Shown piece by piece: positions 33,104 through 38,536 of a stretch of DNA of 64,000 nt (position 1 is its first letter; each line of letters begins with the position of its first letter). A program made the translations under genes and the position numbers. The notes under the pieces were generated by a model that did no database searches, was not told the DNA's origin, and was given only the letters and a program-made list of their open reading frames with translations. Origin of the DNA: an uncultured Clostridium sp. Lineage in GTDB: Bacteria; Bacillota; Clostridia; Lachnospirales; Lachnospiraceae. The DNA is taken from the NCBI GenBank assembly GCA_934438135.1, contig CAKSBP010000017.1, positions 1,647 to 65,646 on the forward strand, read 5' to 3'.

Positions 33104-33221
33104 TACAAAATAAGAATACTGCATGCAATTCCAAATTGCTAACAGGTAATCTTGGCAGCTTTACAGCAGGGGATGCAGCAACCATGAATGCTTCTTACAA
33201 CTTAGTTAGACAGCTGGATAC

Positions 33222-34955
33222 TTACTTTGAAATAGTAAAAAGGGAGTAGAAGTAACCTTTTTTATTCATAAGTTCATCAAAAGAACCTTTTTCTTTTATG
33301 TATCCATTTTTTAGAGTAATAATTTCATCTGCCTGTCGAAGTATGGTTTCATCCAAATCGTGTAAAACGAATACTCTGGTTATATCTTTAAGATTCATAA
33401 TGGAGGACATTACATGGAACGAAGTATTTGCATCCAATGCTGCTGTAATTTCATCTGCAAGAAGTACATTTGTATGTCGGATAAGACTTCTTGCAACTGC
33501 GATTCTCTGCCTTTCTCCTCCTGAGAGAGAACTGCCGTTTTCACCGCATTTATAGGTTAGTCCCTTTTGATTTACAAGTTCAGTAAGACCGGACTGTTTT
33601 ACTGCTTTGTCTATTTCATCGTTCGAGAACTCTTGATACATTGTGATGTTATCTAAAATGGAGCTGTCAAAGATAACTGTTTCTTGTTGGATAAAAGCCA
33701 ATGCCTTATATATCTCATCATTACTGACATCTCTAAGCTCTGTATCATCATAGAAGATTTCTCCACTATATGGACTCATCATTTGCATGATAAGTTTTAA
33801 AAGCGTACTTTTTCCACTTCCGGAGGCACCCACGATAATGTAACATTTTCCCGCCATTATATCTAAGTTTATATTCTTTAGTGATAATTCTGTTTTTGCA
33901 TTTGAAAGGTCATCTGCATAACGGTAGGAAACATTTCTAAATCGAATCGAATGCTGAAGTTTGGAAAGTTTTTTAGAGGTTTCGTGTTTTTCCTCAGTAT
34001 CCAATACTTCTCCAAGTTTATCTACAAGGGATAACGATGCCTTTGCATCTGTCAGCATTGGTGGAAGATTAGTAACTGGATCAATGAGATAATTAATAAG
34101 CTGGGAGAAAGCGATAATCGTTCCTGATGTTATCTTATCATCATAAAAAGAGAACAGTACACATGCAAATAGTACGCTAAACTGTGTGATGTATCCTGAA
34201 ATGGCAGCATGGTAATTTACTTTCTCAATGATTTTTTCTCGATTTCTCTGACTTTTTCTGACCTCTTCGCATTGATTCCTGTAAAGGAGATTAAAGGCAT
34301 TTTCCGCTTTAAAGCTTTTGATAGTAGAAAAGCCTCCAAATATATCTTTTATGACTGCCATATATTCGGAATTTTTTTCAGATAGAGACATCTCTGCATC
34401 GGATAGTTTTCTTCCGGATATAAGTGCAGCAATAAGTGGTATAAATGAAATGATTACTGCAATCAGTGTAAGCCAAATACTATAACCAGCCATCATTACA
34501 AGAGCACCAAGGCAGCATATAAATATCTGGGTGATAATTGGAAGCTGATCAAGATATTTTTCTTTTATAGAAGAAATATCGTTTACTAGTGCTGATGTGT
34601 AATTGGATGAATTTTTCCTATAAAATCCTTGGATATCCTTCTTTAAAAGTTTGGTAAAAGCATAACTTCTGTATTGTGCGACTGCTTTTGTGCTGAATGC
34701 AGTTCTAAAATAATAGGTACATATTCCAGAAAATAATTCCATAAATATAACTGCAAGTCCCATGAAAAGAAGATGACTCCAATTACTTGTCCCCGTTCCT
34801 GCTACTAAGTCGATTACCTGCTGCATAAGATAGGGGACACATAAAATTGCAATAGAAAGAACAGTGGTACCTAGAATGGCCATTGCCAGGTTGAATCTGT
34901 TATTTTCATAGAATTTACTGCGCAGTGCTTTCGTGTTTGACGATTGATTCTTCAT
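33222..34955 (-). CDS. ABC exporter (fused TMD-NBD), putative RiPP transporter
   Basis: Six-TM ABC_membrane domain, then Walker A GASGSGKST, signature LSGGERQR and Walker B LLADE. There is no N-terminal C39 peptidase domain. Confidence 0.85.
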   Translation of the reverse strand: MKNQSSNTKALRSKFYENNRFNLAMAILGTTVLSIAILCVPYLMQQVIDLVAGTGTSNWSHLLFMGLAVIFMELFSGICTYYFRTAFSTKAVAQYRSYAFTKLLKKDIQGFYRKNSSNYTSALVNDISSIKEKYLDQLPIITQIFICCLGALVMMAGYSIWLTLIAVIISFIPLIAALISGRKLSDAEMSLSEKNSEYMAVIKDIFGGFSTIKSFKAENAFNLLYRNQCEEVRKSQRNREKIIEKVNYHAAISGYITQFSVLFACVLFSFYDDKITSGTIIAFSQLINYLIDPVTNLPPMLTDAKASLSLVDKLGEVLDTEEKHETSKKLSKLQHSIRFRNVSYRYADDLSNAKTELSLKNINLDIMAGKCYIIVGASGSGKSTLLKLIMQMMSPYSGEIFYDDTELRDVSNDEIYKALAFIQQETVIFDSSILDNITMYQEFSNDEIDKAVKQSGLTELVNQKGLTYKCGENGSSLSGGERQRIAVARSLIRHTNVLLADEITAALDANTSFHVMSSIMNLKDITRVFVLHDLDETILRQADEIITLKNGYIKEKGSFDELMNKKGYFYSLFTISK

Positions 34956-35010
34956 GATTCGTTTCCGTATCCTTTCTTTTATAGTTCTTGTCTTGGAAAA
35001 TGGAATGTTT

Positions 35011-36378
35011 CTAAAATTTCTGTATTTCAGGATAAAATATTTGATTTAAGAAATCTTCAAAACTTTTCTGTTCATTTTCACATTGTTTGTCAAAGTTTAT
35101 TTTAGCGGATTGTTCACATCCCCCACCGCAATATCCACCTATTTTGCATATGCTGCATTTTTTGTTATCTCTATATGTTCTGTTTGGTTTTTTATAATTT
35201 TTTAGATTGTCAGATGAGAATTTAAATTCTGAGAATTCTTTTCTACCTACGGTATATGTACATCTAAAAGTGTCTAAATCAGGATCGATGTAAAAAACAT
35301 TTTCATATGGTGCAGCAGCCCAACAGTAGTTTCCTGAACCTTTTAACTCTTGTTGGCGATAATTAACTCCTATTTTCTTACACAATTCATAGGGAGCCCG
35401 TATAAACGAAGCATATACTCCATCAGGTATCATACTAAATTCCCCTAATTTTTTCAATATATCAGTTTCACTAAGTATATCTTTATAGTTAGTTTCATAA
35501 AATCTATCATCAACTCGTCCTATAACAAAGGAGAACTTTTCATTACTTAAGAACTCTTCTTGTTCATAAAAATTAATCATGCTACCAATTTGATTTATAT
35601 TATGTTTATCAATATTAGCTGCTATGCTTACTCTTACACCATTATCTATAAGCAGCTTTACGTTTTGTAATATTGAGTTTGCATGTGCAGTCGGTATATT
35701 TTTATTTCTTTCGCATCTTGTTGTCTCGTTATTAAAGAGGCTGTCTATAGTTGTAAATATACTCATATTTAACCCGCGGTATATAATAAGCTCCTTTAGA
35801 TAGTATCCTAAAAAAGAACCATTGGTTGTTATGCCTACACTTATTCTGTTTTCTACGCAAAAGTCAAATATTTTTATAATATCATCGTGATTTTCTGGTA
35901 ATAATGGCTCACCACCAAACAATTCTATAACTATATTTTCATCGTTATGGTTATTTTTATATTCTATAATGGTAGATAGAATATAATCTAAATTTTCTGT
36001 TGTAATTTTATTTTTATTTAGTTTATCATTATGCTGTTGATAGCAATAAGTGCATTTTAAATTGCATGCATAGCTCAATGCAATAACAAAACTAGTAGAT
36101 TTATTTTTGGTATCAACTATTTTATTCGAATAAATATCATATTCACTAGTTATCGGTTTATATTCTAGGACTTCTGCTACAGTTTTTGGGTATTTTCCAA
36201 TGCCATTCCAATCTATTGTATCAAGTAAAATACATCTATTGGTGTATGAATTTATGATGCATACTTTCTTTCCTAGATGTTTTATGATTAAGTGATCTAT
36301 AGATGGTACAAGTATTTCAGATTTATCTTGTATTTCCATTCTTTTTAATTTACCATTTGAAATCTCTTCAATGAACAT
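35011..36378 (-). CDS. Radical SAM/SPASM peptide maturase with an N-terminal (RRE-position) extension
   Basis: CNLKCTYC (C105/C109/C112, nt 36043-36066), GGEPLL, and a C-terminal 7-Cys pattern C-x20-C ... CSICKIGGYCGGGC ... C. About 95 aa precede the cluster motif. Confidence 0.85.
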   Translation of the reverse strand: MFIEEISNGKLKRMEIQDKSEILVPSIDHLIIKHLGKKVCIINSYTNRCILLDTIDWNGIGKYPKTVAEVLEYKPITSEYDIYSNKIVDTKNKSTSFVIALSYACNLKCTYCYQQHNDKLNKNKITTENLDYILSTIIEYKNNHNDENIVIELFGGEPLLPENHDDIIKIFDFCVENRISVGITTNGSFLGYYLKELIIYRGLNMSIFTTIDSLFNNETTRCERNKNIPTAHANSILQNVKLLIDNGVRVSIAANIDKHNINQIGSMINFYEQEEFLSNEKFSFVIGRVDDRFYETNYKDILSETDILKKLGEFSMIPDGVYASFIRAPYELCKKIGVNYRQQELKGSGNYCWAAAPYENVFYIDPDLDTFRCTYTVGRKEFSEFKFSSDNLKNYKKPNRTYRDNKKCSICKIGGYCGGGCEQSAKINFDKQCENEQKSFEDFLNQIFYPEIQKF

Positions 36379-36479
36379 TATTTCCTGTATGATTAGTAAG
36401 ACTCAATAAATCATACGTCTCCTTTCTTTTTAAGGTGGTTAAATTTTTATTAATCTCTAGATTTTTAATATTTTTGAAT

Positions 36480-36512
36480 GAGGAGGTGCAGGAAAACATC
36501 CTACACCCCCTC
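36480..36512 (-). promoter_or_regulatory. Strand-specific hairpin between precursor and maturase genes
   Basis: The minus-strand RNA gagggggugua gg/ccugcaccuccuc forms 13 bp including two G-U pairs, which would be A-C mismatches on the plus strand. The loop is 7 nt and no U tract follows. Confidence 0.5.
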
Positions 36513-36535
36513 ACTCAGAAAAAGGTTTTATACAA

Positions 36536-36667
36536 TTATCTTACTGTAGAATATCTACGATGTCCTACAGATGCTGTGCAAACGTTTGCAAGTTTATCAA
36601 TTGCTTCCATTTTTTCAATTTCTTCTTTTGTTAGAGTAACGCTTTTTAATGCTACCATATCTTTCAT
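36536..36667 (-). CDS. Candidate RiPP precursor peptide (43 aa; not in the ORF track)
   Basis: MKDMVALKSVTLTKEEIEKMEAIDKLANVCTASVGHRRYSTVR. RBS ggaaaggaga precedes it. An alternative start is the second ATG at 36658. It sits directly upstream of, and co-directional with, the rSAM/SPASM and ABC genes. Confidence 0.65.
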   Translation of the reverse strand: MKDMVALKSVTLTKEEIEKMEAIDKLANVCTASVGHRRYSTVR

Positions 36668-36812
36668 TCTCCTTTCCTTGGATGCCTTAAGTATAGCATC
36701 GCAAATTTATACTATGATTACATATTAAATGCTAATACTAAGTCGTCACAATGTCAATATTTTTCTTCTATATTATTCATAAAAATCCATAATATGACAT
36801 ATATAAATGAGA

Positions 36813-38131: not shown

Positions 38132-38536
38132 TTAGGATACACGTACTTGAATTTTTGCACCGAAGCTACTCAGATTGTAGAATTTAATACGGTATTTATG
38201 ATGCTCTAAATCTGTGAAGTTGTAGGAATCCTTTGAAGAACCTTTAATTGTATAGGAATCAACAACGCAGTGGTCAGTATTATCGTATAGCTTAATTAGA
38301 ATATCTGCATTGTTATAATTATTTACCTGAACAAAAATTTCGTAACCACTTTTATATTTACATGGCTTATAAAGGCTTGAACTCTTTGTCCATCCATCGC
38401 CAGAGATGGTTGTTGTAAATTTGTCCAAACTTACATCATCAAGATCTACTACTGAAGATGCACTTACAGCTGTAGAACATAAACTTGTAAGACAGAATAG
38501 TATAGTTAGCATAGTTACCATTAATTTCTTTTTCAT
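38132..38536 (-). CDS. Small secreted protein of unknown function
   Basis: Signal peptide MKKKLMVTMLTILFCLTSLCSTAVSA followed by an ~105-aa beta-rich, Tyr/Asn-rich domain. RBS aaggagga precedes it. The gene is AT-rich. Confidence 0.6.
   Translation of the reverse strand: MKKKLMVTMLTILFCLTSLCSTAVSASSVVDLDDVSLDKFTTTISGDGWTKSSSLYKPCKYKSGYEIFVQVNNYNNADILIKLYDNTDHCVVDSYTIKGSSKDSYNFTDLEHHKYRIKFYNLSSFGAKIQVRVS

What the first reader, a model, noticed from the sequence alone, without database searches (positions are those of the whole stretch)
36536..36667. Precursor peptide with one Cys and a basic His/Tyr-containing C-terminus
The hand-checked translation is MKDMVALKSVTLTKEEIEKMEAIDKLANVCTASVGHRRYSTVR. 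The N-terminal two-thirds is a charged, helix-prone, leader-like segment (LTKEEIEKMEAIDKL). The last 14 residues, CTASVGHRRYSTVR, are strongly basic and contain the only Cys, His and Tyr. There is no double-glycine site.

With a single Cys, at most one sacti- or ranthi-type thioether is possible. The H-R-R and Y-S-T triplets fit the aromatic-X-X pattern of three-residue cyclophanes (triceptides). YydG-type epimerisation would need no Cys at all. None of these chemistries can be chosen from sequence alone, so the product could be new.
Basis: inference. Interest (0 to 1): 0.75.

Follow-up and report, generated by a model that had tools for sequence, protein, structure and literature searches.

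The report
Ryptide-like peptide precursor with C-terminal tail
This small gene encodes the precursor of a ribosomal peptide that the radical SAM enzyme next door most likely cyclises through an arginine-tyrosine carbon-carbon bond, making it an uncharacterised clostridial variant of the streptococcal "ryptides", not a new kind of chemistry.

Summary
The ORF is real and lies on the minus strand (36667..36536). The likelier start is the second ATG (36658), which gives a 40-mer.

It is the first gene of a three-gene cassette: precursor, radical SAM/SPASM enzyme (36378..35011), ABC exporter (34955..33222).

The enzyme's best family match by a wide margin is NCBIfam "ryptide class RiPP maturase" (E 3e-97). 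It scores 326 bits, below the curated cut-off of 600.

In about 40 related loci a small ORF sits next to the maturase homologue. These ORFs share a leader motif (L-T-x-E-E-x-x-K-M-x-x-I-D). Only two residues are invariant in the 28 distinct peptides aligned: the Tyr, and the Arg two residues before it.

The Cys is absent from 15 of 28 precursors. The His is not invariant. Y-S-T exists only in a sub-clade. Thioether and triceptide readings are therefore not supported.

The best reading is a ryptide-type Arg(Cδ)-Tyr(C3) macrocycle at R34-R35-Y36. The locus differs from streptococcal ryptides in four ways:
- A 3-5 residue tail follows the Tyr, confined to one branch of the enzyme tree.
- The exporter is ABC, not MFS.
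- There is no Rgg/SHP regulator.
- Both curated models score below cut-off.

Verdict: a new variant of a known kind, of moderate interest.

The parts
36729..36757 (-). Promoter-like site, TTGACA-17 nt-TAGCAT, about 60-70 nt upstream of the start codons
   Evidence: Consensus scan, 10 of 12 matches. The site is identical in four other strains. The number of such sites in the region is no higher than in shuffles, so this is a candidate only.
36668..36681 (-). Ribosome-binding region CCAAGGAAAGGAGA
   Evidence: Read from the sequence. GGAG ends 1 nt before ATG-1 and 10 nt before ATG-2.
36536..36667 (-). Precursor peptide ORF including the stop codon. It gives a 43-aa peptide from ATG 36667 or a 40-aa peptide from ATG 36658 (the likelier start).
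   Evidence: Translation. The 40-aa form was called independently in at least 23 contigs. Homologous ORFs lie next to maturase homologues in about 40 loci.
36596..36634 (-). Conserved leader motif L9-T-K-E-E-I-E-K-M-E-A-I-D21 (40-mer numbering)
   Evidence: Alignment A2 consensus LTxEExxKMExID, with E13 in at least 90% of sequences. This is the only stretch that matches the NCBIfam ryptide_RrrA model (residues 7-23).
36551..36559 (-). Core motif R34-R35-Y36 (codons CGT AGA TAT), the predicted site of the Arg-Tyr crosslink
   Evidence: R34 and Y36 are the only invariant columns in 28 precursors. The middle position is R or L.
36539..36550 (-). C-terminal tail S37-T38-V39-R40 after the Tyr
   Evidence: Tails of 3-5 residues occur only in precursors whose maturases form one branch of the neighbour-joining tree.
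36475..36517 (-). 19-bp stem-loop in the RNA between the precursor and maturase genes, with no U-tract after it
   Evidence: The 167-nt region that contains it (36545..36379, minus strand) folds to -49.2 kcal/mol, z = -6.2 against shuffles. The best 60-nt window, which holds the stem-loop, folds to -34.9 kcal/mol. A stem-loop with a different sequence follows the precursor gene in 13 of the 14 non-streptococcal relatives examined. There is no significant Rfam match.
35011..36378 (-). Radical SAM/SPASM maturase, 455 aa. It has a CxxxCxxC motif at C105/C109/C112 and seven C-terminal Cys (352, 373, 408, 411, 417, 421, 433).
   Evidence: NCBIfam NF040899 ryptide_rSAM, E 3e-97, 326 bits, cut-off 600; the next family scores 6e-21. 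Pfam Radical_SAM. Invariant Cys columns. AlphaFold2 model with pLDDT 84; best PDB fold matches are SuiB and CteB.
33222..34955 (-). ABC exporter, 577 aa, a fused permease-ATPase with no peptidase domain
   Evidence: Pfam ABC_membrane covers residues 24-294 and ABC_tran covers 359-505. The gene is co-conserved directly after the maturase in close relatives.

Best explanation
The ORF encodes the precursor of a ryptide-like RiPP.

It is probably transcribed from the TTGACA/TAGCAT site. The precursor message ends in a strong stem-loop, which likely stabilises it or lets only part of transcription continue into the enzyme genes.

The N-terminal part of the 40-mer (about 25 residues, motif LTKEEIEKMEAID) acts as a leader recognised by the adjacent radical SAM/SPASM enzyme. 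The enzyme cleaves SAM to a 5'-deoxyadenosyl radical. That radical abstracts a hydrogen from the side chain of Arg34 (Cδ, by analogy with RrrB). The resulting carbon radical attacks the carbon ortho to the hydroxyl of Tyr36. An auxiliary Fe-S cluster removes the electron on re-aromatisation. The result is a macrocycle over R34-R35-Y36 that is 2 Da lighter than the unmodified peptide.

The ABC exporter secretes the product. The leader, and possibly the STVR tail, is removed by a protease that the cassette does not encode.

Shown by tool results:
- The ORF and its relatives are conserved.
- R-x-Y is invariant.
- The enzyme is a homologue of ryptide maturases with radical SAM and SPASM cysteines.
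- The three genes travel together.

Inferred:
- The crosslink itself, and which Arg and which carbon take part.
- The role of the stem-loop.
- Leader and tail processing.
- Biological activity.
For: Enzyme:
- It matches the ryptide maturase model at E 3e-97; the next family scores 6e-21.
- It is 41% identical to a Streptococcus suis enzyme that scores 958 bits on that model.
- The radical SAM Cys triad and seven SPASM Cys are invariant or nearly invariant.
- The predicted fold best matches the RiPP maturases SuiB and CteB.

Peptide:
- The 28 distinct precursors, from Clostridia, Lachnospiraceae, Oscillospiraceae, Faecalibacterium, Butyrivibrio, Fusobacterium, Streptococcus and a Bdellovibrionales MAG, share the leader motif.
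- They have only Arg(Y-2) and Tyr invariant.
- The motif is essentially confined to the ORF next to the maturase.
- The streptococcal members (...ITRRRY) are the published RRR/ryptide subfamily. NCBI names such peptides 'ryptide family R-Y-crosslinked RiPP peptide'.

Literature:
- RrrB links Arg-Cδ to Tyr-C3 at the C-terminus of a 41-mer.
- It does not accept Arg-to-Lys or Tyr-to-Phe substitutions (PMC7670169, PMC11851443, PMC9389541). This fits the invariance of just these two residues.

Cassette:
- The order precursor-enzyme-exporter is kept while the flanking genes differ in every genome.
- The cassette's GC content is 28-35%, against 37-43% in the flanks.
Against: - Both curated NCBIfam models are missed: the enzyme scores 326 bits against a cut-off of 600, and the peptide scores 14.3 bits against a cut-off of 45, matching in the leader only.
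- Enzyme identity to the characterised branch is only 36-41%. At that level radical SAM maturases can change chemistry.
- In this clade the Tyr is not C-terminal. No member of the clade, nor any non-streptococcal member, has been studied.
- Reviews disagree on the carbon. PMC7670169 and PMC11851443 say Cδ. PMC9389541 says Cγ with a 16-membered ring, which would fit the Arg three residues before the Tyr. That position is His here. The primary paper (PMID 31596076) was not available.
- No protease is present in the cassette.
- No mature ryptide has been detected from a native producer (PMC12445099).
Confidence: 0.72

Rival explanations
1. It is the same precursor and enzyme pair, but the tailed clade carries out a different or additional reaction. 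Examples are a crosslink from Tyr36 or Arg35 into the S/G/A-V/T-V/T tail, a C-O ether, or a crosslink from another Arg carbon. The product would then not be a ryptide in the strict chemical sense.
For: The tail is confined to one branch of the enzyme tree, which suggests co-evolution of enzyme and core. Tail residues are biased towards small and beta-branched types: SVTA, GVIK, AVIA, VVVR, STVR. The enzyme scores far below the equivalog cut-off. Related enzymes differ in which carbon they use, for example WprB uses Arg-Cγ to Trp-C5 (PMC11851443).
Against: No tail position is invariant, and the tail varies in length from 3 to 5 residues. The only invariant residues are the same Arg and Tyr as in the untailed majority.
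Confidence: 0.15
2. It is a sacti- or ranthipeptide. The single Cys27 (40-mer numbering) forms a thioether with a downstream residue.
For: The enzyme has a SPASM domain, as sactisynthases do. CteB is among the best fold matches. There is a weak hit to PapB (E 2e-16).
Against: Cys is absent from 15 of 28 precursors, including L163, L165 and L166, whose enzymes are 72-76% identical to this one. A frequency of 13 in 28 is about what amino-acid composition alone predicts. The PapB score is 60 bits against a cut-off of 340.
Confidence: 0.03
3. It is a triceptide: a three-residue cyclophane on an aromatic-X-X motif (H-R-R or Y-S-T), made by a 3-CyFE-type enzyme.
For: The enzyme class is the same (radical SAM/SPASM, forming a C-C bond to an aromatic ring). 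There are weak hits to YhhB and FxsB (E 3e-11 and 2e-9).
Against: His is not invariant. Y-x-x cannot exist in the majority of family members, where Tyr is the last residue. YhhB and FxsB score 43 and 37 bits against cut-offs of 445 and 370, while the ryptide model scores 326 bits.
Confidence: 0.04
4. It is a chance ORF, or a decayed precursor that is no longer made or modified.
For: Small ORFs are common in this AT-rich DNA. Pairwise pN/pS of 0.3-0.9 is only mildly below 1, on saturated and very short alignments. The promoter scan finds no more sites than in shuffles.
Against: The frame, leader motif and R-x-Y are kept across phyla and next to the enzyme. The gene is identical in at least 23 contigs from many samples, with an intact enzyme and exporter. 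An RBS and a downstream stem-loop are present.
Confidence: 0.04

Closest known systems
Ryptides: the RRR subfamily of streptococcal radical SAM RiPPs (RrrA/RrrB of Streptococcus suis; Caruso et al., JACS 2019, PMID 31596076; NCBIfam NF040899 and NF041055)
   Same: The gene order is small precursor, radical SAM/SPASM enzyme, transporter. The leader motif (x-E-F/L-T-x-E-E-L-x-x-M-x-x-I-D) can be aligned. The Arg two residues before an invariant Tyr is conserved. The enzyme is the best-scoring family by more than 70 orders of magnitude in E-value.
   Different: - Enzyme identity is only 36-41%, and both curated models score below cut-off.
- The core is H-R-R-Y, not R-R-R-Y.
- Four residues follow the Tyr, which is the last residue in streptococci.
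- The exporter is ABC, not MFS.
- There is no Rgg/SHP quorum-sensing pair. The neighbours are pfkB and queA.
- The host is a low-GC anaerobe related to Clostridium, not a streptococcus.
Streptide (StrB, AgaB, SuiB; Lys-Trp C-C crosslink)
   Same: It works alike: a radical SAM/SPASM enzyme joins an aliphatic side-chain carbon to an aromatic ring in a short C-terminal core. SuiB is the best solved-structure match to the predicted fold.
   Different: Sequence identity in the fold alignment is only about 16%. The residues differ (K-x-x-x-W against R-x-Y). The window enzyme does not match the streptide maturase family in NCBIfam's top hits.
Triceptides (3-CyFE enzymes XyeB, YhhB, FxsB; aromatic-X-X cyclophanes)
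   Same: If Arg34 is the donor, a three-residue ring closed by a C-C bond to an aromatic side chain.
   Different: By established knowledge of triceptides, the aromatic residue comes first in the triplet and bonds to Cβ of the third residue. Here the aromatic residue comes last and the donor is an Arg side-chain carbon. The enzyme matches YhhB and FxsB only marginally.

Membership tests
Ryptide (RRR) RiPP | The maturase reaches the curated score of NCBIfam NF040899 (600 bits) | tested here: not met
   The window enzyme scores 326 bits, E 3e-97, with full-length alignment. Streptococcus and Staphylococcus enzymes score 810-958 bits. Clostridial, Lachnospiraceae and Faecalibacterium relatives score 310-390 bits.
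Ryptide (RRR) RiPP | The precursor reaches the curated score of NCBIfam NF041055 ryptide_RrrA (45 bits) | tested here: not met
   The 40-mer scores 14.3 bits, E 0.026, on leader residues 7-23 only. Controls: S. cuniculi 93 bits, Amygdalobacter 58 bits.
Ryptide (RRR) RiPP | Arg and Tyr lie in a conserved C-terminal motif, as crosslink donor and acceptor | tested here: met
   R34-R35-Y36 is present. Arg(Y-2) and Tyr are the only invariant columns in 28 precursors, which include streptococcal RRRY peptides.
Ryptide (RRR) RiPP | Three consecutive Arg (the 'RRR' motif), with Tyr as the last residue | tested here: not met
   The core is H-R-R-Y followed by S-T-V-R. The tail is a trait of one branch of the enzyme tree.
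Ryptide (RRR) RiPP | Operon of peptide, radical SAM enzyme and transporter | tested here: met
   Precursor, radical SAM/SPASM enzyme and ABC exporter lie on one strand with short gaps. The streptococcal locus has an MFS transporter instead. The operon composition is described in PMC12445099.
Ryptide (RRR) RiPP | An adjacent shp/rgg quorum-sensing pair, the criterion of the original streptococcal network | tested here: not met
   The neighbours are 1-phosphofructokinase and queA. Rgg is present in S. oralis locus L016.
Ryptide (RRR) RiPP | The product carries an Arg-Cδ to Tyr-C3 bond (a loss of 2 Da) | not testable with these tools
   This needs co-expression with MS/MS and NMR. The chemistry is taken from PMC7670169 and PMC11851443. 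PMC9389541 says Cγ.
Radical SAM/SPASM peptide maturase | A CxxxCxxC cluster motif plus the seven-Cys SPASM pattern | tested here: met
   C105, C109 and C112 are invariant. C352, C373, C408 and C411 are invariant. C417, C421 and C433 are at least 90% conserved. Pfam Radical_SAM matches. The fold matches SuiB, CteB and anSME.
Sactipeptide / ranthipeptide | Conserved Cys donor(s) in the core | tested here: not met
   Cys is absent from 15 of 28 precursors, including close relatives.
Triceptide | A conserved aromatic-X-X motif and a 3-CyFE maturase | tested here: not met
   His is variable. There is no residue after Tyr in most members. YhhB scores 43 bits against 445 and FxsB scores 37 bits against 370.
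Epipeptide (YydG/EpeE) | The maturase is a homologue of YydG/EpeE | tested here: not met
   YydG is not among the 25 best NCBIfam families. EpeE ranks 38th among fold matches, with a TM-score of about 0.38.

The most novel reading that the evidence does not exclude
The tailed clade (H/N-R-R-Y followed by 3-5 small or beta-branched residues, paired with an ABC exporter and found in gut, rumen and environmental Clostridia) makes a product chemically distinct from streptococcal ryptides. Possibilities include an internal Arg-Tyr macrocycle with a retained functional tail, or a second crosslink into the tail. More broadly, ryptide-like peptides would be a widespread signal or antimicrobial class of anaerobic gut Firmicutes that does not depend on Rgg, including the very abundant Faecalibacterium HRLY peptide.
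Probability: 0.2. Interest if true: 0.6.

Novelty: new variant of a known kind. Interest (0 to 1): 0.4.

Why it matters
Ryptides are known only from in-vitro and heterologous work on one Streptococcus suis enzyme. No native product or function has been found (PMC13361665, PMC12445099).

This locus belongs to a much wider set of R-x-Y precursor and maturase cassettes, none of which has been studied. The set occurs outside streptococci, lacks Rgg/SHP control and includes common gut anaerobes.

The comparative data give testable predictions:
- Arg at Y-2 and the Tyr are the essential residues.
- The middle residue can be Arg or Leu.
- Cys and His are dispensable.

The data also define a sub-clade in which the macrocycle would be internal, not C-terminal. 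That would test how tolerant this enzyme family is of core context.

It is not a new chemistry or a new class.

Tried and rejected
- Plus-strand reading of the coordinates. It is full of stops.
- The 31-aa ORF between precursor and enzyme (36498..36403). It overlaps the stem-loop, and a 1-nt strain polymorphism changes it to 43 aa, so it is treated as spurious.
- Known RNA families at the stem-loop. There were only sub-threshold chance hits: mir-627 at 24 bits against 86, and iscRS at 23 bits against 40.
- Sequence search of the PDB. It found only two marginal radical SAM core hits, so no solved ryptide maturase exists.
- dN/dS on the peptide gene. The alignments are too short and saturated to be decisive (pN/pS 0.34-0.94).
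- The primary ryptide paper (PMID 31596076). It is not held. The supplements of PMC11851443 are not held either. The exact crosslinked Arg in RrrA could therefore not be confirmed from text.
- A literature search for 'RRY' with 'radical SAM'. It found nothing.
- The Staphylococcus pseudintermedius locus (L022). It showed no R-x-Y ORF upstream and a shortened enzyme, so it was not used.
- A dedicated protease or regulator. None was found in the cassette or in relatives' cassettes.

Full report
**Observation**

The stated coordinates hold no ORF on the plus strand. The single Cys, His and Tyr lie in the last 14 residues, and there is no Gly-Gly.

The Shine-Dalgarno sequence CCAAGGAAAGGAGA abuts the first ATG. 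Its GGAG ends 1 nt before the first ATG (36667) and 10 nt before the second ATG (36658). Independent gene callers picked the 40-aa form MVALKSV... That exact peptide is on record in at least 23 contigs from many samples, always in the order aroA, pfkB, peptide, radical SAM enzyme, ABC exporter. I use 40-mer numbering below, so the core is H33-R34-R35-Y36-S37-T38-V39-R40.

**Surroundings**

Three genes follow on the same strand:
- the peptide;
- a 455-aa radical SAM enzyme (36378..35011);
- a 577-aa fused ABC permease/ATPase with no peptidase domain (34955..33222).

The flanks are a divergent 1-phosphofructokinase and a convergent queA. There is no regulator and no protease. The cassette has 28-35% GC, against 37-43% in the flanks. 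In relatives the same three genes sit between unrelated neighbours: a resolvase in Clostridium bornimense, CotH/GH43, an AraC-type response regulator and a sigma factor in others. The cassette therefore appears to move as a unit.

A promoter-like TTGACA-17 nt-TAGCAT lies 60-70 nt upstream.

A 19-bp stem-loop (36517..36475) begins about 20 nt after the stop codon. The 167-nt region that contains it (36545..36379, minus strand) folds to -49.2 kcal/mol, z = -6.2 against shuffles. The best 60-nt window, which holds the stem-loop, folds to -34.9 kcal/mol. It has no U-tract and no Rfam match. A stem-loop of unrelated sequence follows the precursor gene in 13 of the 14 non-streptococcal relatives examined, and some of those have a U-tract. 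This is the familiar RiPP arrangement that favours precursor message over enzyme message. That role is inferred.

**The enzyme**

- NCBIfam's best family is NF040899, 'radical SAM/SPASM ryptide class RiPP maturase': E 3e-97, 326 bits, aligned end to end. The next families are CefB at 6e-21, Clo7bot at 6e-18 and PapB at 2e-16. YhhB and FxsB score about 1e-10.
- The curated cut-off is 600 bits. Streptococcal and staphylococcal enzymes score 810-958 bits. This enzyme and all clostridial, Lachnospiraceae, Butyrivibrio and Faecalibacterium relatives score 310-390 bits.
- Identity is 78% to the C. bornimense enzyme and 41% to an S. suis enzyme.
- The CxxxCxxC triad (C105, C109, C112) is invariant across 20 diverse relatives, and the seven SPASM cysteines are invariant or at least 90% conserved.
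- An AlphaFold2 model (pLDDT 84) best matches SuiB (the streptide Lys-Trp crosslinker), CteB and anSME.
- No ryptide maturase structure exists in the PDB.

**The peptide family**

I fetched loci around enzyme homologues from species-representative genomes, from metagenomes, and from contigs that encode close relatives. Nearly every locus with sequence upstream has a 34-56-aa ORF just before the enzyme. In L028 the ORF lies after the enzyme.

Twenty-eight distinct peptides align with the consensus M-x-x-x-x-L-T-x-E-E-x-x-K-M-E-x-I-D ... H-R-R-Y. Only two columns are invariant: R34 and Y36. The residue between them is Arg, or Leu in Faecalibacterium, Coprobacillaceae and Erysipelotrichaceae. The residue before them is H, N, S, Y, P, R, A, G or T.

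Cys is present in 13 of 28 peptides and absent from 15. The 15 without Cys include L163, L165 and L166, whose enzymes are 72-76% identical to the window's. As a control, 40 of the 46 ORFs of 30-60 aa with R-[RL]-Y near the C-terminus are this precursor. Only 6 of 1,561 other ORFs in the same 46 loci have the motif.

The streptococcal members end in ...ITRRRY. They sit in an Rgg-peptide-enzyme-MFS locus. NCBI names such peptides 'ryptide family R-Y-crosslinked RiPP peptide'. The window 40-mer touches that model (NF041055) only in the leader: 14.3 bits against a cut-off of 45.

**What the literature says**

- Ryptides are the RRR subfamily of streptococcal radical SAM RiPPs.
- RrrB crosslinks an Arg side-chain carbon to the ortho carbon of Tyr at the C-terminus of a 41-mer.
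- Arg-to-Lys and Tyr-to-Phe substitutions are not accepted, and N-terminally truncated substrates are accepted (PMC7670169, PMC9389541).
- Two sources give Arg-Cδ to Tyr-C3 (PMC7670169, PMC11851443). One review says Cγ and a 16-membered ring (PMC9389541).
- By my own atom count, a Cδ link from the Arg two residues before Tyr gives a 14-membered ring by the short path. A Cγ link from the Arg three residues before Tyr gives 16. The register in RrrA therefore remains unconfirmed here, because the primary paper was not available.
- The comparative data favour the Arg at Y-2 for the family as a whole, since it is the only invariant Arg. This is an inference.
- The operon is described as peptide, radical SAM enzyme and transporter under SHP/Rgg. 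No mature ryptide has been detected and no function is known (PMC12445099, PMC13361665).
- A 2025 sequence-similarity-network study expanded the RRR enzyme family beyond streptococci but did not analyse it further (PMC11851443).

**Mechanism proposed**

Leader-guided binding places the core in the enzyme's active site. The 5'-deoxyadenosyl radical abstracts a hydrogen from Arg34. The resulting radical adds to Tyr36-C3. An auxiliary cluster oxidises the intermediate, which gives a -2 Da macrocycle over R-R-Y. The ABC transporter then exports the product. The leader, and perhaps the tail, is trimmed by a protease encoded elsewhere. I put this at about 0.72.

**What is different here**

A neighbour-joining tree of the enzymes places every precursor with residues after the Tyr on one branch. 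Examples are RRYSTVR, RRYATTN, RRYVTTL, RRYGVIN, RRYTVTR, RRYVVVR, RRYSVTALS, RRYSVVGQ, RRYGVIK, RRYSLVA and RRYSVIELA. An untailed Oscillospiraceae member is sister to that branch.

The tail has 3-5 residues, is rich in Ser, Gly, Ala, Val, Thr and Ile, and has no invariant position. Together with the ABC exporter, the absence of Rgg/SHP and sub-threshold scores on both curated models, this makes the locus a variant of the ryptide system and not a plain member of it. Whether the tail changes the chemistry is the main open point. I give that rival reading 0.15.

**Rejected readings**

- Thioether formation: the Cys is not conserved.
- Triceptide on H-R-R or Y-S-T: neither triplet is conserved, and the 3-CyFE models barely match.
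- YydG-type epimerisation: the enzyme is not related to YydG/EpeE.
- Chance ORF: conservation and position argue against it.

Pairwise pN/pS of 0.34-0.94 is uninformative at this length and divergence.

**Verdict**

The chemistry is most likely the already described Arg-Tyr crosslink. The novelty lies in an uncharacterised, tailed, Rgg-independent clostridial branch of a family that turns out to be widespread in anaerobes. Interest is 0.4.

Noticed in passing
window 36403-36426 (-): A three-codon upstream ORF (ATG ATT TAT TGA, 36414..36403) with a strong Shine-Dalgarno sequence (GAAAGGAGA) lies 24 nt before the maturase ATG, whose own SD is weak. The T-run inside it differs by 1 nt between strains. 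A similar SD plus short ORF precedes the enzyme in L165 and L166. L001, L160 and L163 instead have a strong SD directly at the enzyme start. This may be translational control of the maturase.
   Followed up: partly
window 38132-38536 (-): A 134-aa ORF with a signal-peptide-like N-terminus has no Pfam or NCBIfam match. Together with a 62-aa ORF it is present in some strains that carry the identical peptide locus and absent from others. The difference is an indel of about 730 bp between aroA and pfkB.
   Followed up: partly
L091-L158 (human gut metagenome contigs); L012, L014 (Faecalibacterium): The Faecalibacterium version of the cassette encodes MYTVTFSNEELEEMKANDAVVIVSCDDDNGHRLY. The peptide is identical in 64 of 68 human gut metagenome loci, so this ryptide-like peptide with Leu in the middle position is very common in the human gut.
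   Followed up: partly
window 33200-36700: The three-gene cassette has 28-35% GC, against 37-43% in the flanking housekeeping genes. In C. bornimense (L001) it lies next to a resolvase gene. In other relatives the neighbours are all different. This suggests horizontal transfer of the cassette.
   Followed up: partly
L016 3592-8962 (Streptococcus oralis MAG): The streptococcal Rgg-peptide-enzyme-MFS locus lies between a full-length MIP (aquaporin-type) gene and a shorter 195-aa MIP ORF, as if it had been inserted at a duplicated or split gene.
   Followed up: no
L028 6001-7701 and 8932; proteins P0065-P0083: In one Lachnospiraceae locus the R-x-Y precursor lies downstream of the enzyme. Several relatives' enzymes are called as 550-675-aa proteins carrying N-terminal HTH_3/HTH_31 or LysR domains. 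These could be true regulator-enzyme fusions or merged gene calls.
   Followed up: no
L022 (Staphylococcus pseudintermedius): The enzyme ORF is only 391 aa, and no R-x-Y ORF lies upstream. Many S. pseudintermedius entries are labelled 'partial', which suggests a decayed locus in this species even though its full-length enzymes pass the ryptide model.
   Followed up: partly
Model m55354b447a04, residues 1-75 of the maturase: The predicted N-terminal domain is almost all beta strands (seven strands and one helix). It is not the usual three-helix, three-strand RiPP recognition element. It was not compared separately with known leader-binding domains.
   Followed up: no
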